Shown here: piece by piece, positions 18,839-34,748 of the stretch
Layout: each line of letters begins with the position of its first letter
Numbering within the stretch: the first letter of the stretch is position 1
Assembly (NCBI GenBank): GCA_964600955.1
Contig: CAZRLV010000001.1
Coordinates: 2,277 to 44,586, forward strand
Direction of reading: 5' to 3'
Length of the DNA: 42,310 nt
DNA from: an uncultured bacterium
Lineage (GTDB): Bacteria > Muiribacteriota > UBA6191
Made by a program: the position numbers and the translations under genes
The notes under the pieces: model-generated
Database searches by the model: none
Told to the model about the DNA's origin: nothing
What the model saw: only the letters and a program-made list of their open reading frames with translations

Positions 18839-18862
18839 GGCCCCTTCGGGGGCCTTTTTTTT
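18839..18862 (+). terminator. Intrinsic terminator of flagellin paralog 1
   Basis: GGCCCC (18839..18844), TTCG loop, GGGGCC (18849..18854), followed by T8 (18855..18862). It lies 39 nt after the TAG. Confidence 0.85.
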
Positions 18863-18972
18863 AGGTAGATAAAGCCGTAAATGGAAGGTAATCAAAAATA
18901 ATTCAAGTTAAACAAAGATAAACAAGGGGGATCAAGCTGGATGAGATCTGGAATTATTCCGAAGTATAGATA

Positions 18973-19035
18973 GAATTCTCCTGAAGGTTTCCAAGTTTTT
19001 GACTGTGGGCCAGTTTTAGACCGAAGAATCTTCCA
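18973..19035 (+). repeat. 63-bp element (left inverted repeat) containing motif copy 3
   Basis: gaattctcctgaaggtttccaagtttttgactgtgggccagttttagaccgaagaatcttcca. By hand alignment about 55 of 63 positions are identical to the reverse complement of 38055..38113. Confidence 0.8.
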
Positions 19036-19046
19036 AATTCACAAAA

Positions 19047-19080
19047 GACCTCTAAATTTCTCAAATTTAGGGGTCTTTTT
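19047..19080. terminator. Bidirectional hairpin terminator at the 3' end of the GT-B gene
   Basis: gacctctaaattt (19047..19059) pairs with aaatttaggggtc (19063..19075), one G-U pair and a 3-nt loop. TTTTT follows on the plus strand and TTTTGTGAATTT on the minus strand. Confidence 0.6.
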
Positions 19081-19089: not shown

Positions 19090-20238
19090 TCAGGTGGCTT
19101 CCTGGAAAATCTTTTTTTCAAATCTGCGCGCAACGGCAGGATATGACATAAGGTCTTGAAAAAAACCATGGGACTCAAGGGCTAAATCGAGTCTTTTCTC
19201 TTTGGATGCGAGCAATAGATTTTCGAGAGCCTGGGAAAGAACAGAAGGGATTGCTTGGGTATTAATAATTGGGAAACGCGCCTTCAGCTCGGTACTGCCG
19301 CATTGCAGTTCCAAATCTCTCTCACTGATATTTTGAATCGAACTCAAGACTATGTTACCGAGAGATAATGCCTCGACGGAGCTAATTCCATATCCACCCA
19401 CTTCGGAGCTAAATTGGTCAATATGGATATGAGACTTCTTTTTTAGTTCGATTATGCGTGCATTAGGCACCGGAGGATTGACTTCTTCATAGCTCAGCTT
19501 GAGTGAGGTCTTGGGAGTGACTCTTTCAAACACTTCGCGAACCACGTTACGAATGATCTCCGTACCCTTGACTGAGTGAGAGGACGGGGTATGCGAAATT
19601 CGAATTTCATCCAAACTAAATTTTTGGTGAATCGATTCTTCTACCTTATCGGCGCTTAATGGGGCCTGGTAAGCACAGACGGGAACCAGATATTGCGGGG
19701 TGCCGGGGCAGAGGCGATATAGATCGACTCCCATCAAGACTTTGTCAAAATATCGCAGGTCCAGTTGGTCGAACTGGTGGTGAGCCACTCGGTAATCAAT
19801 TCCGCAATGGTGGATATATAGCTTGAGTTTAGGGTTGGCCAGTTTAAGCTCTAGCAAACAGAAGTTTAGAATTTTTCGAAGATATCCCAGGGTTTGGTAT
19901 CGCAATGGTTTTTTTTCCAACTGGATTTCTTCAGCAAGCACGATATGGCTAGAGCCTAAGAGCCATTCAATGGCTTTATCGCGCCCCTCCACATTAATGA
20001 GATACTCGCCTCCCCCCGCCTCTGGGGGAAAGGTTAAGTCAATATCATGGGATAAACCATAGGAAAAATGGTGAGGTCTGATACAGATACTTCGAGATTC
20101 CAGTCCTTCTGAGAACTGATCAATGGCACGGGACCAGTTTGTCATCGAATTCCCATAGTCAGTGAAAGCGATGAAACAGACTTTTTTCTTAGGAAATGTG
20201 GACACTTTGGTCTGCGATGTTTTAGGTTTGATTCCCAC
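19090..20238 (-). CDS. GT-B fold (GT1/GT4-like) glycosyltransferase
   Basis: 382 aa. The C-terminal half carries the pattern of retaining GT-B enzymes (ISHTPSSHSVKGTEII ... HIDQFSSEVGGYGISSVEALSLGNIVLSS). The track start is GTG without an obvious SD, so the start is uncertain. TGA stop. Confidence 0.55.
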   Translation of the reverse strand: MGIKPKTSQTKVSTFPKKKVCFIAFTDYGNSMTNWSRAIDQFSEGLESRSICIRPHHFSYGLSHDIDLTFPPEAGGGEYLINVEGRDKAIEWLLGSSHIVLAEEIQLEKKPLRYQTLGYLRKILNFCLLELKLANPKLKLYIHHCGIDYRVAHHQFDQLDLRYFDKVLMGVDLYRLCPGTPQYLVPVCAYQAPLSADKVEESIHQKFSLDEIRISHTPSSHSVKGTEIIRNVVREVFERVTPKTSLKLSYEEVNPPVPNARIIELKKKSHIHIDQFSSEVGGYGISSVEALSLGNIVLSSIQNISERDLELQCGSTELKARFPIINTQAIPSVLSQALENLLLASKEKRLDLALESHGFFQDLMSYPAVARRFEKKIFQEAT

Positions 20239-20312
20239 TGGAACCAGCTATTTTTTAGAGTTTTAAAGGTATGCTATCTTAGGCGGGAAGCGAAGTCAAA
20301 CCGGATTAGTTG

Positions 20313-20999
20313 ATGATGAAGCCAGCCATTAAGAAAACCGTCAAACGTGTATCCGAACTTTACGACGAGAATACCAAGACTCATGGGGTGGGTGCTCGCA
20401 GTGTGGGTTGGCATTCACAAAAAGATCATGCTCTAAGGTTTGAGAAACTCTGTGAAGTCATCAAATTTAACGAGGGTGGAACCATCACCGTTAATGATCT
20501 GGGCTGTGGCTATGGAGCCCTATGCACCTATCTTATGGACCAGACTGAGGTCAAGATTGAGAAATATTCAGGCTACGATGTTTCTAAAGCTATGCTGCAA
20601 CTTGCCAGAGAGGAATTAGACCTTGGGGTCTGTTCTTTGAATCTAAGTGACAGCATTCTTGAGGAGGCCGATTATTCTTTTGCAAGCGGAACTTTCAATG
20701 TTTGTTTTGATGCGGATCGATCTGCTTGGAGAGCGCATATAGAGGCATCCTTAAGGAATCTACACCATTACTCCAGGAAGGGAATGGCTTTTAATTTACT
20801 GTCCACCTACGTGGATTGGAAAGCCCCCGATCTTTATTATGGGGACCCCCTGTATTTTTTCGATTTTTGTAAGAGGAATTTATCAACTTCGGTGACTCTG
20901 ATTCATGACTATCCCCTGTACGAGTGGACAATATTGGTGGGATCAGCCTCCAATTTGAATGATGGTTCGCATGGGAGTGTAGCGGGAGGTTCGGACTGA
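20313..20999 (+). CDS. Class I SAM-dependent methyltransferase
   Basis: Motif I VNDLGCGYGAL. About 228 aa. The first ATG (20313) is taken rather than the track TTG at 20310. The 3' end overlaps the convergent gene by 57 nt. Confidence 0.7.
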   Translation: MMKPAIKKTVKRVSELYDENTKTHGVGARSVGWHSQKDHALRFEKLCEVIKFNEGGTITVNDLGCGYGALCTYLMDQTEVKIEKYSGYDVSKAMLQLAREELDLGVCSLNLSDSILEEADYSFASGTFNVCFDADRSAWRAHIEASLRNLHHYSRKGMAFNLLSTYVDWKAPDLYYGDPLYFFDFCKRNLSTSVTLIHDYPLYEWTILVGSASNLNDGSHGSVAGGSD

Positions 21000-21716
21000 G
21001 AAATTTTGTTCTCGGAAAACCTCTTTGAAAGCCAGCGCTTCTCCCGGAGATTCTGACCAGGTAAATTCGTCTAGCAGCAGCACACTTCCAGGAAGTAAAT
21101 GAGGCTTTATGGCTTCAAGGGCAGCTTTGGTGGGCTCATAGAGTCCCAGGTCAAAATATGCCAGTGCCACAACGGTTTCCGGGTGCGAACGGAAAAACTC
21201 GGGAACCGTGGATCGTACGTCACCCTGAATTAGCTCATGGTTCCCCTTCATATGTCCTAAAACATTACATTCTTCATGAACCTCAAGAAGTTTTTCGAGA
21301 GTTTTGAGGTAGCTCTCAGGTGTTAGATAATCGTTCTCAGTTAGAAAGCCATTTTGCTTGTCTTTTCCTGAAAAGCCTTTATATCCGTCAAATGAGTCAA
21401 AGCCAATGATTTTACGAGTTTTGTTAAATGGCTCATAAATGGCTCGAAGATTTTCAAAAAGAACCATGTTTTGGCCGTACCAGACCCCAAATTCCAAAAT
21501 GGCTCCCGGCTGATTTTTGATCAGTTCATAAAGTTCATTCAGAACCAAAATCTTAACTAACGCTGAACCCCGTGTAAACAAACCAAGGTTACAAAGTAAG
21601 TCGTCCGTGGGGATATTGTTATCTTTATATAATTTTTTGAGTTGTTCCCTGGCTTCTAATTGACCCTTACTTGAGTTGGACTCAAGTAAGTTGGATGGGT
21701 TGTCTTTTTGATGCAT
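20943..21716 (-). CDS. TylF/MycF-like (macrocin-type) O-methyltransferase
   Basis: Track ORF 20943..21818. I prefer the ATG at 21716 (MHQKDN...), preceded by GGGGAG at about 5 nt, giving 257 aa. Family pattern: ILEFGVWYGQNM, IIGFDSFDGY, ALAYFDLGLYEPT. Confidence 0.65.
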   Translation of the reverse strand: MHQKDNPSNLLESNSSKGQLEAREQLKKLYKDNNIPTDDLLCNLGLFTRGSALVKILVLNELYELIKNQPGAILEFGVWYGQNMVLFENLRAIYEPFNKTRKIIGFDSFDGYKGFSGKDKQNGFLTENDYLTPESYLKTLEKLLEVHEECNVLGHMKGNHELIQGDVRSTVPEFFRSHPETVVALAYFDLGLYEPTKAALEAIKPHLLPGSVLLLDEFTWSESPGEALAFKEVFREQNFSVRTSRYTPMRTIIQIGG

Positions 21717-22659
21717 ATGTCTCCCCGGGAGCGCGAGAGGCTTCAGATGAAACTGCCAATCCAAAGCCATATTTTCCGTGTTCGTTACCATTGTAGAATA
21801 AATACTGCGAGCCTTCATAGCGAATCACATGTGGATAACAACTCATTTTGCTGTCTGAACCATCTGGGGCCGGAGGTAACCCGAGTTTTTCATTTTGACG
21901 TTTAAAGACCAGCCCATCGTTTGACTCTGCATATCCAATACGATAGCCCTTACCCAGGGCGGGGGTTGCAAAGCAATACCACATTTGGAAAAAATCTTCT
22001 TCATTTAATACCGTGGGTTTCCCAAGGTTCGACTCTGTGGAGTCCTTGAAATCAAGAATGACCCTTCCCTCGCGTTGCCAGTGGATTCCATCCTTGGATA
22101 GAGCTAGCTTAATATTATAGCGGGAGTAGTAACATCCGTCGATGAGTTGCCAGGAAACCCCCGATACGTAATACATTCTAAACCCATCCCCATGGCGAAT
22201 TACGTGCGGAGCCGTTACCAGGCACGGGTCGAATGGGCTTCGTTCCAGGATTGGGCAATCATGCATACGCTGGAAGCTCATTCCACCATCTTGACTTAAA
22301 GCCAGTCCGATGGAGGCATAAAACAGGTGGGGGCTTTGGCCGCGTGTATATCCGATGTAATAAAGGTAGAGCTTATCATTCACCTCCAGGACGCAGGATG
22401 GATAAACCCCATGTTGGTCAAAATGTCCGGGTTTACCTGGAGTTAGAACGGGCTTGGAATCTACTTCCAGCACCCGCAAGGACTTTAAATCAAAATCCAG
22501 GCAGCCAACGCTGGCGACCTTGTTTTTGTCCCGAGTCGAAAAGAGAACTCTGGGGTGGGATTCACCTCCAGGAATTACCACAGGTGATTGGGCATGGGTC
22601 TGCATCCAGGAGTTCTGGCCTTGCACTGCAAAGACAAGTCCCAAATTTTTCCATTCCAT
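21682..22659 (-). CDS. Beta-propeller protein of the GH32/43/130-like superfamily (function unknown)
   Basis: 325 aa. Repeated blade-like strands with aromatic/Gly patterns (LYLYYIGY, FRMYYVSG, FQMWYCF, YLFYNGN). No signal peptide. The family assignment is from pattern memory and needs profile search. Confidence 0.45.
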   Translation of the reverse strand: MEWKNLGLVFAVQGQNSWMQTHAQSPVVIPGGESHPRVLFSTRDKNKVASVGCLDFDLKSLRVLEVDSKPVLTPGKPGHFDQHGVYPSCVLEVNDKLYLYYIGYTRGQSPHLFYASIGLALSQDGGMSFQRMHDCPILERSPFDPCLVTAPHVIRHGDGFRMYYVSGVSWQLIDGCYYSRYNIKLALSKDGIHWQREGRVILDFKDSTESNLGKPTVLNEEDFFQMWYCFATPALGKGYRIGYAESNDGLVFKRQNEKLGLPPAPDGSDSKMSCYPHVIRYEGSQYLFYNGNEHGKYGFGLAVSSEASRAPGETYASKRQPIQLT

Positions 22660-22673
22660 GATAGATGATTCGT

Positions 22674-23345
22674 TTACTCGAAATATTTAGCTGTTGTTTC
22701 TTTTCGTGGACAGGTTCTTTCGGAAATAAAGAGTTCTCTGGGACCTGCCGATTTCATGATTAATGAACCGGCCCCAATTAGGCATTCATCACCAATTTCA
22801 ATACTATCTCTCAAGGTCGCGTTGACTCCAATCATACATTTTTCACCGACCGTGCAATTTCCGGATATCACCACATGCGAAGTGATAAATGTATGATCTC
22901 CAATCTTGGAATGATGGCCGATGTGGTTACCGCTCCAGAGGACCACATTATTCCCGATTTGGGCGAAAGGTTGCAGGGTGTTGTTCTCAAAAATGAAGGT
23001 ATTATCTCCGATTTTGTTCGTAGACCACAGCCGTACCCCAGGGTAGATATAGGATACGAGTTCATAACCTTTGCTTTTGGCTTCTTCGTAAAACTTGGCT
23101 CGGACATGATTTAGACGTGCATAGCCGATGGCTACAAACATTTTCGTTGCGTGTGGCGGAAATCTGGATTCTACATTTTCAAAGGATACGACCTCAAGTC
23201 CTAGAAACTCGCGAGAATCCCTTTGTTCCAAATAGGCCTTGGATTCACAAAATCCAACGACTTCAAAATCACTGGCTTCGCTAAAATAAGCATATACAAC
23301 CTCGGCAAAGAGATTGGTGCCGACAAGAACAATTTTTTCAGTCAT
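22674..23345 (-). CDS. NeuD/PglD-family sugar N/O-acyltransferase (hexapeptide repeat)
   Basis: N-terminal Rossmann-like KIVLVGTNLFAEVVYAYF, followed by a left-handed beta-helix with hexapeptide repeats (IGNNVVLWSGNHIGHHSKIGDHTFITSHVVISGNCTVGEKCMIGVNATL). Confidence 0.75.
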   Translation of the reverse strand: MTEKIVLVGTNLFAEVVYAYFSEASDFEVVGFCESKAYLEQRDSREFLGLEVVSFENVESRFPPHATKMFVAIGYARLNHVRAKFYEEAKSKGYELVSYIYPGVRLWSTNKIGDNTFIFENNTLQPFAQIGNNVVLWSGNHIGHHSKIGDHTFITSHVVISGNCTVGEKCMIGVNATLRDSIEIGDECLIGAGSLIMKSAGPRELFISERTCPRKETTAKYFE

Positions 23346-23348
23346 GAT

Positions 23349-24404
23349 TTATCTCCCTGGCAACAAGCGATCAAACGGAACAGCAAAGAAGTTGGGGAAC
23401 TCTTGAAGGATTTCTGAGCGAGTGAACTCCAGGATTGAAGTCTCAAGGACTTGAGTGTAATAGATGTAGGGGTGATCCTGTGCTCCCCATCGCTTTTTAA
23501 AATCATAGACTCCGGTCTGGTCATCCCAGGTTCCACCCCAGTTCCAATATTTGAATCCTTTTGATATGGCATTCTTCATCGCTTCAATCAAAGCCAAACT
23601 TAAGGGTTGGCAATTTCGAAACTCGGGGTCCAGTGCGGGGGTAAAATATTCGACAGTCTGATTGAAATAAAAAAGCAGAACAGCGGCTACCATACGATTA
23701 TCGATCTCAGCCAGATAAAGAACATAGTCATCTTTGGCGTAGATTTCAGGGATGGTTCTAAAAAACTCCCAGGACTTTGGAATTCCTCCCAGGTCATTTA
23801 GATTGGCCCTATGCAATAGATAAAGTTTACGCAGGTCCTCAAGACTCTGAGATTTTCGGATGGTGACACCGCTCTTTTTTGCCTTGCGAATATTTCTGGA
23901 GCGGCATTTGCTAAAAGATGCGATCAATAGGCTGAGAGCTTCATCCGATGACTGGGGGAGGGGGGTAATCTGGCCTGTGCGGGCTGTTTGGAAGGTAATA
24001 GGGGTAAAGTCACCATAGTTTATGTTCATGGCACTAAATGGAGAGGAAACAAGGGTAGCGCTCAGGCATTTCTTTTCTCTGGCAAATGAAAAGAACCCGG
24101 CAATGAGTTTCTCACGTATTTCGGGGCTTCCATGGTGTTCGATACAGCCTCCGTGACTCCCGTAAAACGGGAGGGAATTCAGGACATTGCCATAGCGAGT
24201 ATTTTGTTTGAGAAATGTAGGCAGGACTCCCATGATTTTTTTATCTACGTAAACGCATAGGTAGTGGTCGGTTGCCTTGAGTACGCGCTTTAGATGCAGT
24301 CGATAAACATTGGAGGCATAAAGTTGGGTCCATGGAGAGCGCAGAAGGAAGTCGTTGTATTGGTCGAGGTCCTCCGGTTCCAGTTTTTTCAGTTCAAGAG
24401 TCAT
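23349..24404 (-). CDS. FemAB / Acetyltransf_6 (GNAT-fold) family protein
   Basis: Track ORF 23349..24539. The internal ATG at 24404 (MTLELKKLEPEDL...) limits the overlap with the upstream gene to 11 nt. Family-like region: YVLYLAEIDNRMVAAVLLFYFNQTVEYFTPALDPEFRNCQPLSLALIEAMKNAISKGFKYWNWGGT...YDFKKRWGA. Confidence 0.6.
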   Translation of the reverse strand: MTLELKKLEPEDLDQYNDFLLRSPWTQLYASNVYRLHLKRVLKATDHYLCVYVDKKIMGVLPTFLKQNTRYGNVLNSLPFYGSHGGCIEHHGSPEIREKLIAGFFSFAREKKCLSATLVSSPFSAMNINYGDFTPITFQTARTGQITPLPQSSDEALSLLIASFSKCRSRNIRKAKKSGVTIRKSQSLEDLRKLYLLHRANLNDLGGIPKSWEFFRTIPEIYAKDDYVLYLAEIDNRMVAAVLLFYFNQTVEYFTPALDPEFRNCQPLSLALIEAMKNAISKGFKYWNWGGTWDDQTGVYDFKKRWGAQDHPYIYYTQVLETSILEFTRSEILQEFPNFFAVPFDRLLPGR

Positions 24405-28561: not shown

Positions 28562-29697
28562 GTGAGGCTCCTTTCATTAAAAAATTCCTGGATAGCCTGA
28601 ATAATGCTGCTCTGATGACTCTCGGACAAAAACGCACTCATAGGCAAGGATAGGACTTCATAACACAGCTTTTTTGCACGCGGAAAGAATGCGGATCTTA
28701 ATGGACTTTTAAACACGGGTTGTTCGGGCAGAGGTTTGGGGTAGTGTACGGCTGTTGGGATTCCCAGACTAGACAAATGCTCCCTAAGTTGATCCCGCAA
28801 TGGGGTTCGACACGTAAACTGAGCCCATACTGAAGATTGGTCGGGCTCAAGTTCTGGCAAACCCAGGGCCTCCAGCGACTCCAAACCATCAAAATAGCGT
28901 AAAGCGACTCTTTGCCTTTGGGTAACTTCTTGAGGGAAATAACGCAATTTGACGAGAAGAATGGCGGCTTGTACTGAATCCAGGCGGCTATTCATGCCCG
29001 CCATAACATGGGTGTAGGTTCTGGATTCTCCTTGAGCTTTTGGGGGTAGTTCACCATGGGATTTTACCAATCTCAACTTCGCTGCAGTCTCATCCCTGTT
29101 GCAAAATACGGCGCCACCGTCACCAAAACAACCCAGAGGCTTTGAAGGGAAAAAACTGGTTGCGGCCAACTGGGTCTGACCCCCGCTGAAGCCATCACGA
29201 TTTCGTGCCCCCAGGCTCTGGGCTGCGTCTTCGATCACCACCAGATCATGAGTCTTAGCCACTCTTGATATATTTCGTAGATTACAGGTTTGGCCAAATA
29301 GGGAAACAGCCAGTATGGCTCGAGTCCGGCTGGTGATCACTCCTTCTAGAAGGTTTGGATCCAGTCCGAAACTCTTTTCTTCGACATCAACAAATACAGG
29401 GATAGCCCCAGAGAGTAGAACAACTTCAGCCGTCGCTATAAAACTGAAGGCGGGAACAATGACTTCATCACCAAGTTCCAAATCCAGAGCTTTGAGGCAA
29501 AGGAGCAGGGCATCGGTACCGCTTGCGCAGGTTACGCAGTGTTCGGTCCCGACAAATTCGCCCAATTGGGTTTCCAATTCACCGACCCAGGGGCCGTTAA
29601 TGAACCTTCCAGAATCCAGAACTTCCTCTATGGCTTTGTTAAAGTCTGCACGGTAGGCTTGAATTTGCGCATCAAGATCGGAGAAGGGAATTTTCAT
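28558..29697 (-). CDS. wbpE: WbpE/WlbC-like DegT aminotransferase (3-oxo-sugar transaminase type)
   Basis: 379 aa. The PLP-lysine region SFFPSKPLGCFGDGGAVF closely recalls WbpE-type enzymes. It sits directly downstream of the WbpB-like and WbpD-like genes. Confidence 0.7.
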   Translation of the reverse strand: MKIPFSDLDAQIQAYRADFNKAIEEVLDSGRFINGPWVGELETQLGEFVGTEHCVTCASGTDALLLCLKALDLELGDEVIVPAFSFIATAEVVLLSGAIPVFVDVEEKSFGLDPNLLEGVITSRTRAILAVSLFGQTCNLRNISRVAKTHDLVVIEDAAQSLGARNRDGFSGGQTQLAATSFFPSKPLGCFGDGGAVFCNRDETAAKLRLVKSHGELPPKAQGESRTYTHVMAGMNSRLDSVQAAILLVKLRYFPQEVTQRQRVALRYFDGLESLEALGLPELEPDQSSVWAQFTCRTPLRDQLREHLSSLGIPTAVHYPKPLPEQPVFKSPLRSAFFPRAKKLCYEVLSLPMSAFLSESHQSSIIQAIQEFFNERSLT

Positions 29698-30278
29698 TCT
29701 AAGGGTTTTCCAGTCTTGTCCAGGAAATAGACCTGATTCTTCTCAAGAACATATTTACTGGAGTCAGAGGAATCCATGGCTTTGCCGGATCTATCGAAAT
29801 GCAGTTTGTTTCCAGCCCGTGAAATCCAACCTTGATGTTTAGCGGGATTGCCATAAACCAATGCGAAATCAGGTACATCACGTGTCACTACAGAACCTGC
29901 TCCGATCAACGCGAAACGGCCTATGGTAACCCCACAAATCAACGTGGCGTTGGCACCAATGGTAGCTCCTTGCTTGACCAGAGTAGGCAGGAACTCATTT
30001 TTGCGCTCCAAAAAAGCCCTTGGATTTATGACGTTAGTGAAAACCATGCTGGGTCCCAGGAATACATGATCTTCCAGAGTAACGCCCTGATAGACCGAAA
30101 CATTATTTTGGATTTTGACTCCGTTTCCAATGACTACATGCGGCCCTATCATACAGTTTTGACCGATGATACAATCTGTGCCGATTTGAACGTCTTTTAG
30201 CAAGTGAGTGAAATGCCAAATATTGGTTCTTTCCCCAATTTGAACTCCCTTGTCGATGCATGCCGTGTTGTGGATCAT
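29694..30278 (-). CDS. wbpD: WbpD/WlbB-like hexapeptide N-acetyltransferase
   Basis: 194 aa. NIWHFTHL...IQNNVSVYQGVTLEDHVFLGPSMVFTNVINPRA matches my memory of Pseudomonas WbpD / Bordetella WlbB nearly motif for motif. Confidence 0.75.
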   Translation of the reverse strand: MIHNTACIDKGVQIGERTNIWHFTHLLKDVQIGTDCIIGQNCMIGPHVVIGNGVKIQNNVSVYQGVTLEDHVFLGPSMVFTNVINPRAFLERKNEFLPTLVKQGATIGANATLICGVTIGRFALIGAGSVVTRDVPDFALVYGNPAKHQGWISRAGNKLHFDRSGKAMDSSDSSKYVLEKNQVYFLDKTGKPLE

Positions 30279-30291
30279 AGTTTGGAATTAC

Positions 30292-31248
30292 TTAAGACCT
30301 GATACAGAAAGGGTGGTAATCACCTTTCAGTCCGGCGGGTTTGGTGTTTCTAAGGGCATGCACAATCTCAATCGATGTTTTGGTTTCTTCCAGGGAATGT
30401 CCTTGCTCATTCAGGATTTCATGGTAGCACCGCGAATGCAAATTTGTGAAACCATGACTGAAATCCAGCTCTTCCCCGTTTATACATATGGAGCGATAGG
30501 GCTGGTCTTCCAGCGACTTTTGTCTTGGCGGTAAATCAAGCTTGGAAATGGACAAAAACCAGCGAATCCGTGCATGCTTCAGTTCCAGAAAGCCTGCGCA
30601 ATAGGTCTCATTTGAGACATGAACCACTGACTTCTCGATCTTTCCAAAAATCCAACAGAGGAGATCAAAGAAATGGATACCGATATTCGTAGCAATGCCG
30701 CCGGAACGTGAGATATCACCTTTCCAGGAGTAGTTGTACCATTTGCCTCGCGGGGTGATATAACTCAGGTCGATGTCCCATTTTTTCTTTGGGTTTTGAT
30801 CTATCTCGAACCAGGTCTTGTGGGCAAGGTCTTGAAGCGCAGGATGGCTGCGTAGTTGTAGAATGGGATAGATCTTGTACCCACTTTCGCTCTCAACCTC
30901 CTGTAGAGCGTCAATATTCCAAGGGTTGAGTACCAGTGGCTTCTCACAAATCGCATGAGCCTGACTTCTGAGGGCAAAACGGATATGAGCGTCATGGAGA
31001 TAGTTTGGGGAGCAAATGGAAATATACTCTGGTTTTTTTCCCTTGCGCTTTAGCTTTTCAATATGTCGGTCAAAGCGCTCAAATTCCGTAAAGAAGTCAG
31101 CTTCAGGGTAATAAGAATCAATAATCCCTACACTGTCACAGGGGTCCAAAGCCGCCAGTAGATCTCCATGGCATTCTCTCATGGCCCTCATATGCCTTGG
31201 TGCGATATATCCTGCCGCACCAATCAGGGCAAATTTTGGTTGTCTCAT
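30292..31248 (-). CDS. wbpB: WbpB/WlbA-like Gfo/Idh/MocA oxidoreductase
   Basis: Track ORF 30292..31341. The internal ATG at 31248 (MRQPKFALIGAAGYIAPRHMRAM...) avoids a 76-nt overlap with pruA. FALIGAAGYIAPRHMRA, SVGIIDSYYPEADFFTEFERF and YISICSPNYLH are WbpB-like. Confidence 0.75.
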   Translation of the reverse strand: MRQPKFALIGAAGYIAPRHMRAMRECHGDLLAALDPCDSVGIIDSYYPEADFFTEFERFDRHIEKLKRKGKKPEYISICSPNYLHDAHIRFALRSQAHAICEKPLVLNPWNIDALQEVESESGYKIYPILQLRSHPALQDLAHKTWFEIDQNPKKKWDIDLSYITPRGKWYNYSWKGDISRSGGIATNIGIHFFDLLCWIFGKIEKSVVHVSNETYCAGFLELKHARIRWFLSISKLDLPPRQKSLEDQPYRSICINGEELDFSHGFTNLHSRCYHEILNEQGHSLEETKTSIEIVHALRNTKPAGLKGDYHPFCIRS

Positions 31249-31265
31249 AGGAGGTCTGTCAGGTC

Positions 31266-32897
31266 TTAAGTTTTCAAAAAGGGGTAGCGATAGTCTCGTG
31301 GCGGAACGAAAGTTTCTTTGATCGTTCTCGGACTCAGCCATCGTAGGAGGTTATTCTTGGCACCCGCCTTATCATTTGTACCGCTGGCACGTCCTCCTCC
31401 AAAAGGTTGTTGTCCCACCACGGCACCCGTTGGTTTGTCATTGATATAAAAATTGCCCGCTGAGTTTCTAAGGGCATCCAGTGCAAAATCAATGGCGTAG
31501 CGGTCTTTGGAGAAAACGGCTCCCGTGAGTGCATAAGGCGAAGTGGAGTCTACGAGTTTCAAGGTTTCTTCCCACTCAGAATCGGGGTAGATATAAACGG
31601 TCATCACCGGTCCAAAAATTTCCTCACGCAAGGTTTTGAAGTTTGGATCAGAAGCGAGGATAACCGTAGGTTCTATAAAATATCCCATGGAGTCATCGCA
31701 TTTTCCACCCATGAGAATCCTGGCGTCCGGCGAAGCTTCAGCGGCAGCGATATACCCTGAAATTTTATTGTAAGCACGTTGGTCGATGACCGCGTTGACA
31801 AAATTCCCAAAATCTTCCACTGGGCCAGTCTTGATACTCTCCAAGTCTTTTTTTAGAAGAGGGTGAACCTCATCCCAGAGACTCTGAGGGAGATAGACCC
31901 GTGAGACCGCTGAACATTTTTGGCCCTGGAACTCAAAGGCCCCGCGAATCATAGCCGTGGTTAACTCCTGGGGGTCTGCCGATGGGTGGGCGACAATAAA
32001 ATCCTTGCCTCCCGTCTCACCCACAATGCGGGGGTAAGAGCGGTATTGGTCGACGGACTGACCCACGGTTTTCCAAAAAGATTGAAAGGTAGCAGTGGAC
32101 CCGGTGAAGTGAATGCCTGCCAGGTCTGGATGCATCAGAGCCGACCTTGAGAATTCCTCTTGAATTCCAAAAACCGCATTAATAACCCCGGGGGGTAGTC
32201 CGGCTTCTTCGAAGATTTTTAAGAGGATATGAGCCGAATAGATCTGGGTGTCCGCAGGTTTCCAGACCACGACATTTCCGAGCATGGCCGGAGTAAGCGC
32301 AAGGTTGGCGGCAATGCAGGTGAAATTAAAGGGAGTCACCGCCGCGACAAACCCTTCAAGGGGGCGGTACTCCATGCGATTCCAAGTGGCCGGGGAGTTT
32401 TTTCGTGGTTGCTCGCTATAGATTTCCTGCATGTACTTGACATTGAAGCGTAGAAAATCTGCCAACTCGCAAACGGCGTCGATCTCTGACTGGTAGGCGT
32501 TTTTAGATTGTCCCAGCATGGTGGCAGCGTTAAGTCTCTGACGCCAGGGACCTGAGATGAGATCCGCCATTTTTAAAAAGATCGAGGCGCGGCTTTCCCA
32601 GGACAAAGTAGCCCACTGCTTTTGAGCCTCAAGGGCATTATGAATGGCCTCGCTTACCAGGTCCTCATTTCCAACATGAAAATTGCCTAAAATATGGCCA
32701 TGGTCGTGAGGACAGATACAGGGTTTTATTTTTCCTGTTCGGATCTCTTTTCCTCCAATAACCATGGGGATGTCCAGACATTGGGACCTCAATTCTCTGA
32801 GTTGAGCCTGTAGTTCCTCTCGTTCAGGACTCCCTGCGGTATAGTTGCCAACGGGTTCGTTTTCGGGTTCAGGAAGATTGGCAAGGCTGATTTTCAT
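31266..32897 (-). CDS. pruA: L-glutamate gamma-semialdehyde (1-pyrroline-5-carboxylate) dehydrogenase
   Basis: 543 aa aldehyde dehydrogenase. Has the ETGGKD catalytic-Glu region (IVGETGGKDF), the catalytic Cys region (FEFQGQKCSAVSRVY) and a long PruA-type N-terminal extension. Confidence 0.8.
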   Translation of the reverse strand: MKISLANLPEPENEPVGNYTAGSPEREELQAQLRELRSQCLDIPMVIGGKEIRTGKIKPCICPHDHGHILGNFHVGNEDLVSEAIHNALEAQKQWATLSWESRASIFLKMADLISGPWRQRLNAATMLGQSKNAYQSEIDAVCELADFLRFNVKYMQEIYSEQPRKNSPATWNRMEYRPLEGFVAAVTPFNFTCIAANLALTPAMLGNVVVWKPADTQIYSAHILLKIFEEAGLPPGVINAVFGIQEEFSRSALMHPDLAGIHFTGSTATFQSFWKTVGQSVDQYRSYPRIVGETGGKDFIVAHPSADPQELTTAMIRGAFEFQGQKCSAVSRVYLPQSLWDEVHPLLKKDLESIKTGPVEDFGNFVNAVIDQRAYNKISGYIAAAEASPDARILMGGKCDDSMGYFIEPTVILASDPNFKTLREEIFGPVMTVYIYPDSEWEETLKLVDSTSPYALTGAVFSKDRYAIDFALDALRNSAGNFYINDKPTGAVVGQQPFGGGRASGTNDKAGAKNNLLRWLSPRTIKETFVPPRDYRYPFLKT

Positions 32898-32909
32898 AAG
32901 AATCTCCTT

Positions 32910-33380
32910 TTAAAGGCTATAGCGTTTTTCAAGGCCCCGAAGAAGCCCCAGGGCTTTTTCCATGATGGAAATATTCTGGTCCATAATTAATTGAATAGCA
33001 GACTTCAAGGTTTTAGGAGAGTCCACCGTGAGAATCATAGCCGTCTTGAACTGGGGATTTTTTAAAGCCATGACCTTGATTCCCAGGGCGCGGACTTCGT
33101 TTGCAAGAGGGGTATCGAAATGATAAGAGACTAAACCCATGGCCTCAGCTTTTTTATAGATCTCACGGTCGCGTGTTTCAAGATTCAATTTGAGATCAAA
33201 CAGAGCTTGCAGATCGAATTCACCCATTTTCCCAGCCGGAATCAGAAACTCGCAAAACCAGTTTCGAAACAGAAAGTATGGACAATGATTTTCACGGCCC
33301 GCGTCCTCACGAACGACCTCTCCCTCGGGGAAAGCCTCCTCAAGTTCGGCTAAAACACTATTGATTTGATCGGGACTCAT
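32910..33380 (-). CDS. Hypothetical protein (156 aa)
   Basis: ATG preceded by GGAGG at 7 nt. No family recognised. It is the first gene of the tightly packed array 33380->20943. Confidence 0.6.
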   Translation of the reverse strand: MSPDQINSVLAELEEAFPEGEVVREDAGRENHCPYFLFRNWFCEFLIPAGKMGEFDLQALFDLKLNLETRDREIYKKAEAMGLVSYHFDTPLANEVRALGIKVMALKNPQFKTAMILTVDSPKTLKSAIQLIMDQNISIMEKALGLLRGLEKRYSL

Positions 33381-33511
33381 CCAAAAACCTCCGCAACCAA
33401 GATCGTACTATATTCTTAGCGGAGAAGAAAGGCTGTGATGATGACCCCCTCAGCCTAATTCCCCGTCTACCTTCTCCACCAATTCTGCATGGGTTTTTGC
33501 AAAAAAATGAT

Positions 33512-34699
33512 TCAGAATCTTGCGGACTTCTGATTTTTTTTCTGGGCTGGTGGGTTTTTGGCGCATTCAAGTAATTTTTGAGGGTTTCCAAGCACACCAT
33601 AAATCTTTAGGCATTGATGGAAGACAAAGGGATCAGGGCCAAAGACGGATTCGAATTCCTGATAGCACGCTAAGGCTTCTTCAAACCGTTGCTTACATGA
33701 ATAGAGAAAACCCAGGTTATAAAGAATTTCCGCACGAAAAAACTGAATTTCAGAAACCTTATTCAGGACCTTATGAATTTTCTCATACCAGAGAAGAGCT
33801 TCGGATTCATCCTTGCCTACGAAGGCAGCACGTGCTTTACGCAGCCAGAGCATGGGCGAATCAGGATTTAGTGTAGAGACAATTTTTTCCCAGACTTCTA
33901 CATCATCTTCTGGTTTTCTCGGGACCTTGAGAGGAAATTCCATCAACCACCCATAAACGGATTCTGCAAGAAACACTCGCAAATTTCCACTTGAGCTATT
34001 GAAGGCTTCTACCAGGAGATCTAGGATCTTGATCTCACCATTCCAGTGGCTCTGGGCATAGTAATAGACGAAGGATGGTTCCCTTCCCATCTGCTCAAAA
34101 TGCTTATCTAGCAGTCCCTTGTTTCTCTCAATTTTTTCCTCGTAGCGTGACCCTGCATAACCCAGATGATAGACCTTAGTATCGATCTGGGTGAATCCAA
34201 AGTTTTTTGCCTCCAAAGAAGGGACTACAGTTTCATGAATGGGGTTTTGAAACTGGATTCCAAGCCCGTTTCTAAAAAGGCGTACAAAAGTATTGCTGTC
34301 ATTAATGCTATGGATTTGAAGATCATGGCTAGTCCAATTCATAGTTTTCAAGCTGACACAGGACAATGAATAGGCACTTGCGTCTGACTTTGATATAAGG
34401 GCACGCAGTTGAAGTAAATCTTCGCCCCGCAGTCTTTCGTCAATATCCAAACTTAGAATCCATTCACCCCTGGCCTGCGATAGGGCAAAATTACGGGCAG
34501 CTGAAAAATCATCTATCCAGGTAAAGTCAAAATAAGGTAGGGAACGTTGCCTGAGAATATCAAGACTGGTGTCCGTAGATCCTGTATCCACCAGAACCAA
34601 TTCATCACAATAGGGGAGAATCATATCCAAAAACTCAGGAAGAAAGAGTTCTTCGTCGCAAAAAATAGCGCAGACGCTTAGTAATTTCTGGGTATCCAT
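33512..34699 (-). CDS. GT2-family glycosyltransferase fused to a C-terminal TPR-like domain (paralog 1)
   Basis: N-terminal GT-A motifs SVCAIFCDEE, LVLVDTGSTDTS, FSAARNF and the DxD motif LSLDIDERL. The helical C-terminal half has TPR-like units (FFRAEILYNLGFLYSCKQRFEEALACYQEF). It aligns along its whole length with 38241..39536. Confidence 0.75.
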   Translation of the reverse strand: MDTQKLLSVCAIFCDEELFLPEFLDMILPYCDELVLVDTGSTDTSLDILRQRSLPYFDFTWIDDFSAARNFALSQARGEWILSLDIDERLRGEDLLQLRALISKSDASAYSLSCVSLKTMNWTSHDLQIHSINDSNTFVRLFRNGLGIQFQNPIHETVVPSLEAKNFGFTQIDTKVYHLGYAGSRYEEKIERNKGLLDKHFEQMGREPSFVYYYAQSHWNGEIKILDLLVEAFNSSSGNLRVFLAESVYGWLMEFPLKVPRKPEDDVEVWEKIVSTLNPDSPMLWLRKARAAFVGKDESEALLWYEKIHKVLNKVSEIQFFRAEILYNLGFLYSCKQRFEEALACYQEFESVFGPDPFVFHQCLKIYGVLGNPQKLLECAKNPPAQKKNQKSARF

Positions 34700-34748
34700 G
34701 ATCTTGCAAAGTGAATATACTACAGGATTGTAAAGATTGGAGGATGTG

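What the first reader, a model, noticed from the sequence alone, without database searches (positions are those of the whole stretch)
19090..34699. Flagellin-bracketed sugar island predicts a non-nonulosonate, diamino-uronic-acid type flagellin glycan
Sixteen genes lie between flagellin paralog 1 (ends 18800) and paralog 2 (starts 37770). Twelve of them (33380 down to 20943) form one minus-strand array whose junctions range from 35-nt overlaps to 17-nt gaps.

Recognisable by motif are WbpB-like (30292..31248), WbpD-like (29694..30278) and WbpE-like (28558..29697) genes. Their order matches Pseudomonas wbpB-D-E and Bordetella wlbA-B-C, which build UDP-2,3-diacetamido-2,3-dideoxy-glucuronic acid.

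The array also encodes an SDR epimerase/dehydratase, a second DegT aminotransferase, an AsnB-like amidotransferase, FemAB-like and NeuD-like enzymes, a methyltransferase and a beta-propeller protein. A second methyltransferase (plus strand) and a GT-B transferase lie just to its left.

What is absent is equally informative:
- There are no pse/leg (neuB/neuA-type) genes, which make the usual flagellin sugars.
- There is no Wzx, Wzy, Wzz, ABC exporter or undecaprenyl-phosphate priming transferase, which an LPS or capsule locus would need.

Inference: the S/T-rich giant flagellins are O-glycosylated in the cytoplasm with a methylated, amidated or acylated diamino-hexuronic acid. To my knowledge this sugar class is known from O-antigens and archaellin N-glycans, not from bacterial flagellins.
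Basis: partly seen in the sequence, partly recalled or inferred. Interest (0 to 1): 0.75.

Follow-up and report, generated by a model that had tools for sequence, protein, structure and literature searches.

The report
Amino-uronic sugar cassette in flagellin locus
An uncultured marine bacterium carries a 12-kb block of cytoplasmic amino-sugar genes inserted between its flagellin genes, most likely a new version of the known flagellin glycosylation islands; the diacetamido-uronic sugar class it predicts has already been detected on Clostridium botulinum flagellin.

Summary
The gene inventory is right. Sixteen genes lie between two ~880-aa flagellins. WbpB, WbpD and WbpE are confirmed by full-length best matches to the solved enzymes. 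There are no Pse/Leg or Maf genes, and no Wzx, Wzy, ABC exporter, priming transferase or polytopic membrane protein.

Additions:
- **Inserted block:** only 19090..31248 (13 genes) is inserted. Two relatives with collinear loci lack it, so the P5C dehydrogenase, the 156-aa ORF, GT2-TPR and RidA are ancestral.
- **Two modules:** the block has a C3 module (WbpB/E/D) and a C4 module (epimerase-type SDR, C4-class aminotransferase, PglD/PerB-like acetyltransferase). It also has an AsnB amidotransferase and a FemAB-like enzyme. This suggests a di- or tri-amino hexuronamide like the Bordetella O-chain cap.
- **Not flagellum-specific:** the same cassette, with its own rare GT-B transferase, sits at non-flagellar sites in related marine MAGs. 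Flagellin as the target therefore rests on position only.
- **Precedent:** di-N-acetylhexuronic acid is already reported on C. botulinum flagellin.

wbpA and wbpI are absent from the window. Verdict: a plausible new variant of a flagellin glycosylation island, of moderate-to-low interest.

The parts
16122..18800 (+). Flagellin paralogue 1 (about 892 codons). It carries an in-frame TGA at 18018-18020 in this assembly.
   Evidence: Flagellin_N and Flagellin_C on the two ORF halves; both halves are in the same frame. Sister assembly L037 (99.93% identical) has GGA (Gly) at that codon.
18838..19079 (+). Intergenic region after fla1. It holds a strong terminator hairpin (18838-18855), a conserved ~60-nt element (18968-~19035) and a second, bidirectional terminator (19043-19079).
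   Evidence: (repeat I3).
19090..20238 (-). GT-B-fold protein (382 aa), a probable GT4-like glycosyltransferase; the cassette's own transferase.
   Evidence: No Pfam, NCBIfam or PDB sequence hit. AlphaFold pLDDT 80.7 with a GT-B fold. Remote homologues carry weak sub-threshold Glycos_transf_1 matches in the same region, and some are fused to GT2 or RgpF. Close homologues always sit beside AsnB, DegT and acetyltransferase genes.
20310..20999 (+). Class-I SAM methyltransferase, convergent with the array.
   Evidence: Methyltransf_25/31/11. Conserved in the same position in L035.
20943..21716 (-). TylF-like (macrocin O-methyltransferase family) methyltransferase. The ORF could start as far up as 21818.
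   Evidence: PF05711 and PF13578. The 257-aa start comes from calls on sister contigs.
21682..22659 (-). GH130-like five-bladed beta-propeller (related to beta-1,2-mannoside phosphorylases); role unknown.
   Evidence: Weak PF04041 match, NF052550 53 bits; PDB 7fip and 9fj8 at E 6e-8 to 2e-7. Conserved in the cassette.
22674..23345 (-). NeuD/PglD/PerB-type sugar N-acetyltransferase (C4-amino class).
   Evidence: TIGR03570 172 bits, above its cut-off; PglD_N domain. Full-length PDB matches are PglD and PerB.
23349..24404 (-). FemAB-like / GNAT (Acetyltransf_6) transferase, a possible aminoacyl-tRNA-dependent N-acylase.
   Evidence: PF02388, PF13480 and TIGR03019 99 bits.
24394..26418 (-). AsnB-like glutamine-dependent amidotransferase, a candidate uronamide-forming enzyme.
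   Evidence: Asn_synthase 277 bits, GATase_7 160 bits, TIGR01536 434 bits.
26406..27596 (-). Second DegT-family aminotransferase, C4-class.
   Evidence: PF01041 310 bits. Best PDB hits are perosamine synthetase, ArnB and 8vr3/5. Best NCBIfam hits are PseC, LegC and ArnB, all below their cut-offs.
27593..28561 (-). Extended SDR of the 4-epimerase type.
   Evidence: Best PDB hits are 6dnt, a UDP-glucose 4-epimerase, WbpP, WbgU, MoeE5 and 6zla. Motifs SSSASVYG and YGATK lack the acidic residue of dehydratases and decarboxylases (sequence).
28558..29697 (-). WbpE/WlbC-like C3 aminotransferase.
   Evidence: PDB 3nyu/3nu7 WbpE, 311 bits, full length.
29694..30278 (-). WbpD/WlbB-like 3-N-acetyltransferase.
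   Evidence: PDB 3mqg WlbB, 217 bits.
30292..31248 (-). WbpB/WlbA-like 3-dehydrogenase (Gfo/Idh/MocA).
   Evidence: PDB 3oa2 WbpB 317 bits and 3o9z 309 bits.
31266..32897 (-). L-glutamate gamma-semialdehyde (P5C) dehydrogenase; an ancestral housekeeping gene, not part of the inserted block.
   Evidence: TIGR01236 790 bits, above its 614-bit cut-off. Present in both island-less relatives.
32910..33380 (-). 156-aa protein of unknown function; ancestral to the flagellin locus.
   Evidence: No family hit. The word-indexed search returned only its own cluster and one 75%-identical homologue, plus a 35%-identical copy in L007. The AlphaFold model is poor.
33512..34699 (-). GT2 + TPR glycosyltransferase, GmaR-like; candidate flagellin glycosyltransferase (ancestral).
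   Evidence: PF00535 plus TPR. Best PDB hit is Listeria GmaR 22ao at E 1e-23, then SunS. Conserved in relatives.
34737..35126 (+). RidA family protein (ancestral).
   Evidence: PF01042 and TIGR00004.
35131..37770 (-). Flagellin paralogue 2 (879 aa, intact). A sigma-28-like promoter lies at ~37940-37966.
   Evidence: Flagellin_N and Flagellin_C. TAAAG-N15-GCCGATA motif.
38241..39536 (-). Second GT2 (SunS/GmaR-like) transferase, a full-length paralogue of 33512..34699 (36% identity over 373 aa).
   Evidence: The orthologue in a relative is annotated GT2 + TPR.
39625..42225 (-). Flagellin paralogue 3, split over three reading frames (shifts near 40855 and 39810).
   Evidence: The gene call on L002 ends at the same point.

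Best explanation
**Locus.** The window holds a flagellin locus of an uncultured marine bacterium. It has three ~880-aa S/T-rich flagellin paralogues and two GmaR-like GT2-TPR transferases. Sigma-28-like promoter motifs lie upstream of fla1 and fla2.

**Insertion.** A ~12.4-kb block of 13 genes (19090..31248) has been inserted between the 3' end of fla1 and the 3' end of a P5C dehydrogenase gene. All 13 products are predicted soluble. The block lies 17 nt downstream of that gene and is co-oriented with it, so read-through transcription is possible.

**Proposed chemistry (inferred).**
1. WbpB, WbpE and WbpD oxidise, transaminate and N-acetylate C3 of UDP-GlcNAcA, giving UDP-GlcNAc3NAcA. The UDP-GlcNAcA would come from a 6-dehydrogenase encoded elsewhere.
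2. The AsnB-like enzyme amidates C6 to the uronamide.
3. The epimerase-type SDR oxidises C4. An amide at C6 would protect the 4-keto sugar from decarboxylation.
4. The C4-class aminotransferase adds a 4-amino group.
5. The PglD/PerB-like acetyltransferase and/or the FemAB-like enzyme acylate that amine, and the two methyltransferases decorate the product.

The predicted product is a heavily N-acylated di- or tri-amino hexuronic acid or hexuronamide.

**Transfer (inferred).** The cassette's own GT-B transferase, perhaps together with the GH130-like protein, transfers the sugar in the cytoplasm. The most likely acceptor is a primer sugar placed on flagellin Ser/Thr by the ancestral GT2-TPR enzymes.

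**Shown versus inferred.** Shown here: gene identities, the insertion, the conserved cassette, and the absence of export genes. Inferred: substrates, order of steps, and flagellin as the acceptor.
For: **Enzyme classes.**
- WbpB, WbpD and WbpE are orthologue-level matches to the solved enzymes.
- The C4-class assignments rest on the best PDB matches of DegT2 (perosamine synthetase, ArnB) and of the NeuD-like acetyltransferase (PglD, PerB; TIGR03570 above cut-off).
- The SDR groups with 4-epimerases, including UDP-GlcA/GlcNAc(A) epimerases, and lacks dehydratase/decarboxylase motifs.

**One pathway unit.** The eleven genes WbpB-D-E-SDR-DegT2-AsnB-FemAB-NeuD-GH130-GTB-TylF are syntenic at 38-59% identity in L031, and partly so in L029, L030 and L035.

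**Insertion.** L007 (closest genome) and a 61.9-kb JGI contig (PheS 85% identical) are collinear but have only ~90-290 nt between the P5CDH gene and the convergent flagellin.

**Flagellin glycosylation context.**
- GT2-TPR best matches the GmaR flagellin GlcNAc-transferase domain (PMC9638930).
- GT2 plus TPR is the criterion used to call flagellin transferases in Clostridium islands (PMC13317340).
- The flagellins have 23-25% S+T.
- There are no membrane or export proteins.

**Chemical precedents.**
- Di-N-acetylhexuronic acid occurs on C. botulinum flagellin.
- GalNAc3NAcA(N) and a GalN3N4NAN cap occur in the Bordetella O-chain, whose locus has AsnB-type amidotransferase genes (PMC2615507).
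Against: - No wbpA-type UDP-GlcNAc 6-dehydrogenase and no wbpI-type 2-epimerase is present in the window or in the homologous cassettes.
- The cassette, with its GT-B gene, occurs in related MAGs with no flagellin within 10 kb. In one it lies next to NeuB genes and an ABC transporter; in others it lies between housekeeping genes. It is therefore not intrinsically a flagellar module.
- The relatives keep the flagellins and GT2-TPR genes without the cassette at this site.
- No sigma-28-like promoter was found for the block.
- An epimerase-type SDR acting as a net 4-oxidase is unproven.
- Two of the three flagellin genes are disrupted in this assembly.
Confidence: 0.45

Rival explanations
1. The cassette is a general amino-uronic-sugar module for another glycoconjugate, such as LPS core or O-chain, capsule, S-layer or another protein. 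It landed in the flagellin locus only because repeated flagellin paralogues make a recombination hot spot. The flagellins would then be modified, if at all, only by the ancestral GT2-TPR enzymes with a common sugar such as GlcNAc.
For: - The same cassette with the same GT-B gene sits at non-flagellar sites in related MAGs (L029-L035).
- In L031 it adjoins NeuB genes, a NeuB/CMP-transferase/GT2 fusion and an MsbA/PglK-like ABC transporter.
- WbpB/D/E are classically LPS genes (PMC2615507).
- Relatives have the same flagellins and GT2-TPR genes without the cassette at this site.
- No flagellar promoter motif was found for the block.
Against: - There is no flippase, polymerase, ligase, priming transferase or any polytopic membrane protein in the block or the window, and none within 10 kb in L029/L030 or L032-L035.
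- Insertion exactly between flagellin genes, beside flagellin-type transferases, is the hallmark position of known flagellin glycosylation islands.
- The sugar class is already documented on a bacterial flagellin.
Confidence: 0.33
2. The product is not a uronic acid. Without WbpA, the WbpB/E/D-like enzymes would act on UDP-GlcNAc (GnnA/GnnB-like chemistry) to give UDP-GlcNAc3NAc. The AsnB-like enzyme would then amidate some other carboxylate, for example an acidic amino acid attached by the FemAB-like enzyme. This rival concerns chemistry only and is compatible with either target.
For: - No UDP-sugar 6-dehydrogenase is present in the window or in any homologous cassette locus examined.
- The AsnB-like protein also scores 364 bits to the N-acetylglutaminylglutamine amidotransferase model, below its cut-off.
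Against: - The WbpB-like protein scores 317 and 309 bits, full length, to the P. aeruginosa (3oa2) and 3o9z WbpB structures. From my knowledge of the family, these enzymes are specific for UDP-GlcNAcA. It scores only ~30 bits to other Gfo/Idh/MocA sugar dehydrogenases.
- The WbpD-like protein scores 217 bits to WlbB, which acts on the uronate.
- The SDR's relatives include UDP-GlcA and GlcNAcA 4-epimerases.
- 6-dehydrogenase genes are often unlinked.
Confidence: 0.17
3. The locus is decaying or mis-assembled, and the apparent 'flagellin-bracketed island' has no current function in flagellar biology.
For: - fla1 has an in-frame TGA and fla3 has two frameshifts in this assembly.
- The source is a metagenome assembly.
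Against: - fla2 and all 13 cassette genes are intact.
- The TGA is GGA in an independent assembly that is 99.93% identical.
- The same gene order is recovered in at least four independent assemblies.
Confidence: 0.05

Closest known systems
Clostridium botulinum flagellar glycosylation island and FlaA glycans (Twine 2008; Carter 2009, PMC2674064)
   Same: It is a variable sugar-gene island flanked by flagellin genes. The flagellin O-glycan is identified by MS/MS as a di-N-acetylhexuronic acid (m/z 259), with an acetylated variant at m/z 301. This is the same sugar class that WbpB/E/D predict here.
   Different: It is a Gram-positive pathogen with a much larger island (CBO2666-2729) that includes nonulosonate-type genes. 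The genes responsible for the hexuronic glycan were not defined in the papers read here. No C4-amination or amidation is implied there.
Wbp/Wlb pathway for UDP-ManNAc3NAcA (P. aeruginosa O5 wbpA-B-E-D-I; Bordetella wlbA-D)
   Same: The three middle enzymes (3-dehydrogenase, 3-aminotransferase, 3-N-acetyltransferase) are present as orthologue-level matches. They lie in the same B-D-E order.
   Different: WbpA and WbpI are absent. There are no O-antigen assembly or export genes. The trio is embedded in a larger conserved cassette with a C4 module, an amidotransferase and a FemAB-like enzyme.
Bordetella bronchiseptica wbm O-polysaccharide locus (PMC2615507)
   Same: Its chemistry is the closest to what this gene set predicts. 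The polymer is 2,3-diacetamido-hexuronic acid, partly as the uronamide, capped with a 2,3,4-triamino-2,3,4-trideoxy-galacturonamide derivative. The locus has several glutamine-dependent (AsnB-type) amidotransferase genes.
   Different: That sugar sits on LPS made by an Und-P and export pathway.
Listeria monocytogenes GmaR (flagellin O-GlcNAc transferase / MogR anti-repressor)
   Same: The N-terminal GT2 catalytic domain is the best solved match (E 1e-23). It is followed by TPR repeats, and the gene lies beside flagellin genes.
   Different: The proteins here are 395 and 431 aa against 637 aa for GmaR and lack the anti-repressor domain. Their donor sugar is unknown.
Primer-plus-extension flagellin islands (P. 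aeruginosa a-type orfA-N/FgtA; C. difficile CD0240-0244). This comparison is from my own knowledge of the literature.
   Same: The architecture is shared: a flagellin-directed transferase plus a strain-variable set of sugar-modifying genes next to the flagellin gene.
   Different: The sugar chemistry differs (rhamnose- or GlcNAc-phospho-N-methylthreonine-based). None of those islands carries WbpB/D/E.
Methanococcus archaellin N-glycans
   Same: They contain 2,3-diacetamido-2,3-dideoxy-hexuronic acids, in part amidated or acetamidino-modified.
   Different: They are archaeal, N-linked through a lipid carrier and an oligosaccharyltransferase, and sit on a non-homologous filament protein.

Membership tests
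Wbp/Wlb UDP-2,3-diacetamido-2,3-dideoxy-hexuronic acid pathway | WbpA-type UDP-GlcNAc 6-dehydrogenase | tested here: not met
   No UDP-glucose/GDP-mannose dehydrogenase family hit on any ORF of at least 100 aa in the window. None is present in the homologous cassettes either. The rest of the genome could not be searched.
Wbp/Wlb UDP-2,3-diacetamido-2,3-dideoxy-hexuronic acid pathway | WbpB/WlbA 3-dehydrogenase | tested here: met
   317 bits, full length, to P. aeruginosa WbpB 3oa2, and 309 bits to 3o9z.
Wbp/Wlb UDP-2,3-diacetamido-2,3-dideoxy-hexuronic acid pathway | WbpE/WlbC 3-aminotransferase | tested here: met
   311 bits to WbpE 3nyu/3nu7. The next hits (290-270 bits) are other C3 aminotransferases, so this test is less discriminating.
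Wbp/Wlb UDP-2,3-diacetamido-2,3-dideoxy-hexuronic acid pathway | WbpD/WlbB 3-N-acetyltransferase | tested here: met
   217 bits to WlbB 3mqg; the next hit scores 126 bits.
Wbp/Wlb UDP-2,3-diacetamido-2,3-dideoxy-hexuronic acid pathway | WbpI/WlbD UDP-sugar 2-epimerase | tested here: not met
   No Epimerase_2 hit in the window. The GT-B-fold protein at 19090..20238 resembles 2-epimerases only at fold level. Its remote homologues carry weak Glycos_transf_1 matches or are fused to GT domains.
Wbp/Wlb UDP-2,3-diacetamido-2,3-dideoxy-hexuronic acid pathway | Activity on UDP-GlcNAcA and formation of UDP-GlcNAc3NAcA | not testable with these tools
   This needs enzymology.
Flagellin glycosylation island | Sugar genes located beside or between flagellin structural genes | tested here: met
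   The block at 19090..31248 lies between fla1 and fla2, and fla3 follows.
Flagellin glycosylation island | Accessory, variable content between related genomes | tested here: met
   The block is absent from the collinear loci of two relatives.
Flagellin glycosylation island | Flagellin-directed transferase (Maf or a TPR-bearing glycosyltransferase) | tested here: met
   Two GT2-TPR genes; the best PDB match is GmaR. They lie outside the inserted block and are ancestral.
Flagellin glycosylation island | Expression coupled to the flagellar regulon | tested here: inconclusive
   Sigma-28-like motifs were found only upstream of fla1 and fla2. The block may be read through from the unk156-P5CDH unit, since the gap is 17 nt. 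Generic promoter and terminator scans were at chance level.
Flagellin glycosylation island | The glycan is demonstrated on flagellin | not testable with these tools
   This needs mass spectrometry of filaments.
Nonulosonate (Pse/Leg) flagellin glycosylation | NeuB-type synthase, CMP-sugar synthetase and Maf transferase | tested here: not met
   No PF03102, PF02348 or Maf-type hit in the window. PseC, LegC and LegB models are hit only below their cut-offs.
Und-P-dependent O-antigen or capsule locus | Wzx/Wzy/Wzz or ABC exporter, initiating phosphoglycosyltransferase, ligase | tested here: not met
   No such Pfam or NCBIfam hits. No island protein has more than one hydrophobic segment.
GmaR-type flagellin glycosyltransferase | GmaR-like GT2 catalytic domain followed by TPR repeats | tested here: met
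   Residues 6-195 match GmaR 22ao at E 1e-23. TPR_1 and TPR_2 match at residues 323-348. A D-x-D motif (DID) is seen in the sequence.
GmaR-type flagellin glycosyltransferase | C-terminal MogR anti-repressor domain | tested here: not met
   The proteins are 395 and 431 aa against 637 aa for GmaR (PMC9638930). No match extends beyond the TPR region.

The most novel reading that the evidence does not exclude
The 11-13-gene cassette is a self-contained, transferable 'sugar plus transferase' module. It would build a 2,3,4-triamino-2,3,4-trideoxy-hexuronamide carrying a tRNA-derived aminoacyl and/or methyl decoration. In this lineage it would have been recruited to extend the flagellin O-glycan through a previously unrecognised GT-B family. 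That would put the first triamino-uronamide sugar on any flagellin. It would also give the first gene set for a sugar of the Bordetella GalN3N4NAN cap type.
Probability: 0.2. Interest if true: 0.6.

Novelty: new variant of a known kind. Interest (0 to 1): 0.35.

Why it matters
- **Known phenomenon:** flagellin glycosylation islands are known to vary in chemistry, and di-N-acetylhexuronic acid has already been seen on C. botulinum flagellin. The finding therefore does not open a new category.
- **Clean natural comparison:** closely related marine bacteria share the same flagellin locus with and without a 12-kb amino-uronic-sugar block.
- **A candidate gene set:** the conserved cassette (WbpB/E/D, SDR, C4 aminotransferase, acetyltransferase, AsnB, FemAB-like, GT-B) is a concrete candidate for making triamino-uronamide sugars, whose biosynthesis is not assigned.
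- **Testable without culture:** the cassette could be tested by heterologous expression, although the organism is uncultured.
- **A new transferase family:** it flags a GT-B family with no Pfam model as the cassette's transferase.

Tried and rejected
- **NCBIfam for WbpB/D/E.** The library gave no equivalog-level name for these three genes. I used sequence searches of solved structures instead.
- **PDB entries 8vr2/8vr3/8vr5/8vr6.** These hit the SDR, DegT2 and an acetyltransferase, and I suspected a triacetamido-sugar pathway. A literature search for those codes found nothing relevant, so they are not used as evidence.
- **Carboxylate-binding residues in WlbB.** The WlbB structure paper (PMC2879449) is not held, and PMC9271549 had no such detail.
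- **The 156-aa ORF (32910..33380).** The word-indexed search returned only its own cluster and one 75%-identical homologue. The AlphaFold model has pLDDT 56, and Foldseek gave no match with E < 0.5. Its function remains unknown.
- **Profile of the GT-B family against PDB sequences.** No hit.
- **Rfam scan of the whole window.** No match.
- **Sigma-28 or sigma-54 motif in front of the sugar block.** None found upstream of the block. Generic promoter and terminator scans were at chance level apart from the two terminators after fla1.
- **Exact-product look-up of the truncated fla1 ORF.** Not on record. The question was resolved through a sister contig instead.
- **TGA recoding as an explanation for the fla1 stop.** Considered and rejected: the sister assembly simply has GGA.
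- **Sugar-gene homologues near other large flagellins.** None were found at E 1e-3 in 22 loci from SAR324, Treponema, Clostridia and others.
- **Gene content of the C. botulinum island.** The papers read do not list wbpB/D/E-like genes, so the genotype-glycan link there remains open.

Full report
**1. What is in the sequence**

ORF listing and profile searches give the map below.

| Coordinates | Strand | Call |
|---|---|---|
| 16122..18800 | + | fla1 (Flagellin_N / Flagellin_C) |
| 19090..20238 | - | 382-aa protein with no family hit |
| 20310..20999 | + | class-I methyltransferase |
| 20943..21716 | - | TylF-like methyltransferase |
| 21682..22659 | - | GH130-like beta-propeller |
| 22674..23345 | - | NeuD/PglD-like acetyltransferase (TIGR03570, 172 bits, above cut-off) |
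| 23349..24404 | - | FemAB-like |
| 24394..26418 | - | AsnB-like amidotransferase |
| 26406..27596 | - | second DegT aminotransferase (DegT2) |
| 27593..28561 | - | extended SDR |
| 28558..29697 | - | WbpE-like |
| 29694..30278 | - | WbpD-like |
| 30292..31248 | - | WbpB-like |
| 31266..32897 | - | P5C dehydrogenase (TIGR01236, 790 bits) |
| 32910..33380 | - | unknown 156-aa ORF |
| 33512..34699 | - | GT2 + TPR transferase |
| 34737..35126 | + | RidA |
| 35131..37770 | - | fla2 (879 aa) |
| 38241..39536 | - | second GT2 transferase |
| 39625..42225 | - | fla3 |

The junction range uses the starts of independent gene calls on sister contigs.

**2. Test of the WbpB/D/E calls**

NCBIfam has no equivalog for these enzymes, so I compared each gene with the sequences of solved structures.
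- The WbpB-like protein matches P. aeruginosa WbpB (3oa2) at 317 bits over its whole length and the 3o9z WbpB structure at 309 bits. Other Gfo/Idh/MocA enzymes score about 30 bits.
- The WbpD-like protein matches WlbB (3mqg) at 217 bits, against 126 bits for the next hit.
- The WbpE-like protein matches WbpE at 311 bits. Other C3 aminotransferases follow at 290-270 bits.

The calls stand. The 'profile searches show the calls are wrong' refutation does not apply.

**3. What is absent**

No NeuB, CMP-transferase or Maf was found. No Wzx/Wzy/Wzz, ABC exporter or priming transferase was found anywhere in the window. No protein between the flagellins has more than one hydrophobic segment.

Two enzymes of the five-step Wbp/Wlb pathway are also absent from the window: the WbpA-type 6-dehydrogenase and the WbpI-type 2-epimerase.

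**4. The block is an insertion into an older flagellin locus**

- **Source.** The window comes from marine metagenome assemblies; identical proteins occur on JGI and ENA contigs.
- **Nearest labelled relatives.** PheS is 66% identical to MAGs labelled Candidatus Cloacimonetes and 58% to Nitrospinota. I could not place the organism more precisely.
- **Closest genome (L007).** In MAG binchicken_co28_71 the order is fla2 - RidA - GT2-TPR - 156-aa ORF - P5CDH, followed directly by the convergent fla1 orthologue about 90 nt away.
- **A closer relative.** A 61.9-kb JGI contig (PheS 85%, 156-aa ORF 75% identical) is collinear from Prs/SpoU/EEP through four flagellins. It has only ~290 nt between P5CDH and the convergent flagellin.

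So only 19090..31248 (13 genes, ~12.4 kb) is the accessory block. P5CDH, the 156-aa ORF, GT2-TPR and RidA are ancestral. None of 22 loci around other large flagellins (SAR324, Treponema, Clostridia and others) has homologues of the sugar genes.

**5.

The GT2-TPR protein (33512..34699) best matches the glycosyltransferase domain of Listeria GmaR (22ao, E 1e-23), then the peptide glycosyltransferase SunS. GmaR's N-terminal domain transfers GlcNAc to flagellin and is followed by TPR repeats (PMC9638930). GT2 plus TPR is also the criterion used to call flagellin transferases in Clostridium islands (PMC13317340).

A full-length paralogue (36% identity) lies at 38241..39536. Both are conserved in the relatives.

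The flagellins are S/T-rich: 23-25% overall and up to 36% in the central region, against an 11% mean for the other proteins. Flagellin O-glycosylation is therefore likely in this lineage independently of the inserted block.

**6. The block is a conserved cassette that also occurs away from flagellins**

The 382-aa protein has few close homologues: six clusters besides its own in the word-indexed search. Their contexts are informative.

| Locus | Source | Cassette content | Surroundings |
|---|---|---|---|
| L031 | MAG labelled Cloacimonetes | WbpB-WbpD-WbpE-(DAO)-SDR-DegT2-AsnB-FemAB-NeuD-like-GH130-like-382-aa homologue-TylF, 38-59% identical | NeuB genes and an ABC transporter |
| L029/L030 | GCA_002402105.1 | WbpB-D-E-SDR-DegT2-AsnB ... 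382-aa homologue | further amino-sugar genes |
| L035 | marine metagenome (ENA ERZ27275912) | FemAB-NeuD-GH130-382-TylF plus the divergent methyltransferase | next to NUDIX, a sigma-54 activator and PTA |
| L032-L034 | Tara and other marine metagenome contigs | reduced set: SDR-AsnB-DegT-acetyltransferase-382 | same chromosomal site as L035 |

No flagellin lies within the available flank (at most 10 kb) in any of them. The cassette is thus a unit with its own transferase, and its assignment to flagellin in the window rests on position only.

**7. The 382-aa protein**

- An AlphaFold model built on seven sequences has pLDDT 80.7 and pTM 0.79.
- Foldseek places it among GT-B proteins: UDP-GlcNAc 2-epimerases, glycogen synthase, MurG and MshA (E 1e-8 to 1e-5, TM 0.4-0.55).
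- A profile search of 1.8 billion representatives finds 979 relatives at E <= 1e-3.
- In several multidomain relatives, weak sub-threshold Glycos_transf_1 matches fall inside the region that matches the profile. Some are fused to GT2 or RgpF domains.

**8. Likely chemistry (inference)**

The gene set contains two amination and acylation modules.
- **C3 module.** WbpB, WbpE and WbpD. Their solved relatives are all C3 enzymes: WbpE, DesV, QdtB, WlbB and QdtC.
- **C4 module.** DegT2 groups with perosamine synthetase and ArnB. The NeuD-like enzyme groups with PglD and PerB.
- **SDR.** It groups with 4-epimerases, including UDP-GlcNAc(A) and UDP-GlcA epimerases. Its motifs are SSSASVYG and YGATK. 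From my knowledge of SDR motifs, it lacks the acidic residue of 4,6-dehydratases and decarboxylases (sequence). A 6-deoxy sugar is therefore unlikely.
- **AsnB-like enzyme.** It is associated with the SDR, DegT and the GT-B gene in every cassette variant.

I propose that the uronate is amidated first. A 4-keto uronamide would not decarboxylate, so C4 could then be oxidised, transaminated and acylated. The product would be a di- or tri-amino hexuronamide, possibly aminoacylated by the FemAB-like enzyme and methylated.

The closest described chemistry is the Bordetella O-chain. It is a GalNAc3NAcA polymer, partly in the uronamide form, capped with a 2,3,4-triamino-galacturonamide derivative. Its locus has three AsnB-type amidotransferase genes (PMC2615507).

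**9. Prior knowledge**

C. botulinum FlaA carries a glycan with an oxonium ion at m/z 259 and fragments characteristic of a di-N-acetylhexuronic acid. There is also an m/z 301 variant, and the island is flanked by flagellin genes (PMC2674064; summarised in PMC13317340). I found no paper linking wbpB/D/E genes to a bacterial flagellin island.

**10. Verdict**

| Item | Verdict |
|---|---|
| Observation | confirmed |
| Sugar-class inference | supported for the 2,3-diamino core; unproven for the uronic acid; probably an under-description, since C4 amination and amidation are likely |
| Flagellin as acceptor | plausible, about even odds |
| Novelty claim | refuted |

The feature is best described as a new variant of a flagellin glycosylation island, created by insertion of a portable amino-uronic-sugar cassette.

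**11. Side observations**

- **fla1 stop codon.** The TGA at 18018-18020 is GGA in a 99.93%-identical sister assembly.
- **fla3 frameshifts.** The gene is split across three frames.
- **Conserved element.** A ~60-nt element with a TTGACT-type promoter motif lies upstream of fla2, with an orphan copy downstream of fla1. It also occurs in the relative's flagellin loci.
- **Flagellin leaders.** They carry paired GGA motifs.

Noticed in passing
window 18018-18020: fla1 is interrupted by an in-frame TGA that aligns with a Gly of fla2. An independent assembly (L037, 99.93% identical over 10.9 kb) has GGA at that codon. The stop is therefore a strain variant or an assembly/sequencing error, not recoding.
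   Followed up: yes
window 39625-42225 (minus strand): The third flagellin paralogue is split over three reading frames, with shifts near 40855 and 39810; the latter is at an AAAA run. Its true C-terminus ends at 39625. The gene call on sister contig L002 stops at the same point as here, so at least the distal shift is reproducible. It could be a pseudogene or a recurrent homopolymer error.
   Followed up: partly
window 18968-19035 (+) and ~38050-38118 (-); L007 ~12460 (-); L008 ~15764 (+): A conserved ~60-nt non-coding element (…CTGAAGGTTTCC-N-TTTTGACTGTGGGCCAGTT…) lies upstream of flagellin genes in this organism and in the related MAG. The copy at 38088-38061 scores as a sigma-70-like promoter (TTGACT-16-CAGAAT). 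The copy after fla1 points at a terminator and the convergent GT-B gene, so it looks orphaned, possibly a scar of the rearrangement that brought in the cassette.
   Followed up: partly
window 15462-15488 (+) and 37940-37966 (-): Sigma-28-like promoter motifs (TAAAG-N15-GCCGATA) lie upstream of fla1 and fla2. None was found for the sugar block.
   Followed up: partly
window 16082-16115 and 15741-15774 (+); leaders of fla2 and fla3: The flagellin 5' leaders carry paired GGA motifs, one overlapping the Shine-Dalgarno sequence, reminiscent of CsrA binding sites in flagellin mRNAs. A 76%-identical copy of the fla1 leader lies 341 nt upstream and precedes only a 53-codon ORF (15778..15939).
   Followed up: no
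window 31266-32897 and 32910-33380; L007 6516-8646: A housekeeping-type P5C dehydrogenase and a lineage-restricted 156-aa protein of unknown function are conserved between flagellin genes in all three related genomes. The reason for this linkage is unknown. The predicted secondary-structure order of the 156-aa protein (helix, 3 strands, helices, 2 strands, long helix) is low-confidence.
   Followed up: partly
L029/L030 6913-10000: In one Cloacimonadota-labelled MAG, two AAA_35/ATPase_2 genes replace the FemAB, NeuD and GH130 genes inside the cassette, between the AsnB gene and the GT-B gene.
   Followed up: no
L031 13114-16242: Next to the homologous cassette lies a 1042-aa fusion protein with NeuB, CMP-transferase (CTP_transf_3) and GT2 domains, followed by a second NeuB gene and an ABC transporter. 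This is an unusual three-way fusion of nonulosonate synthesis, activation and transfer domains.
   Followed up: no
window 1860-7029: Two very large TPR proteins (903 and 823 aa), each with two hydrophobic segments, and a HEAT-repeat protein lie upstream. They are unrelated to the finding.
   Followed up: no
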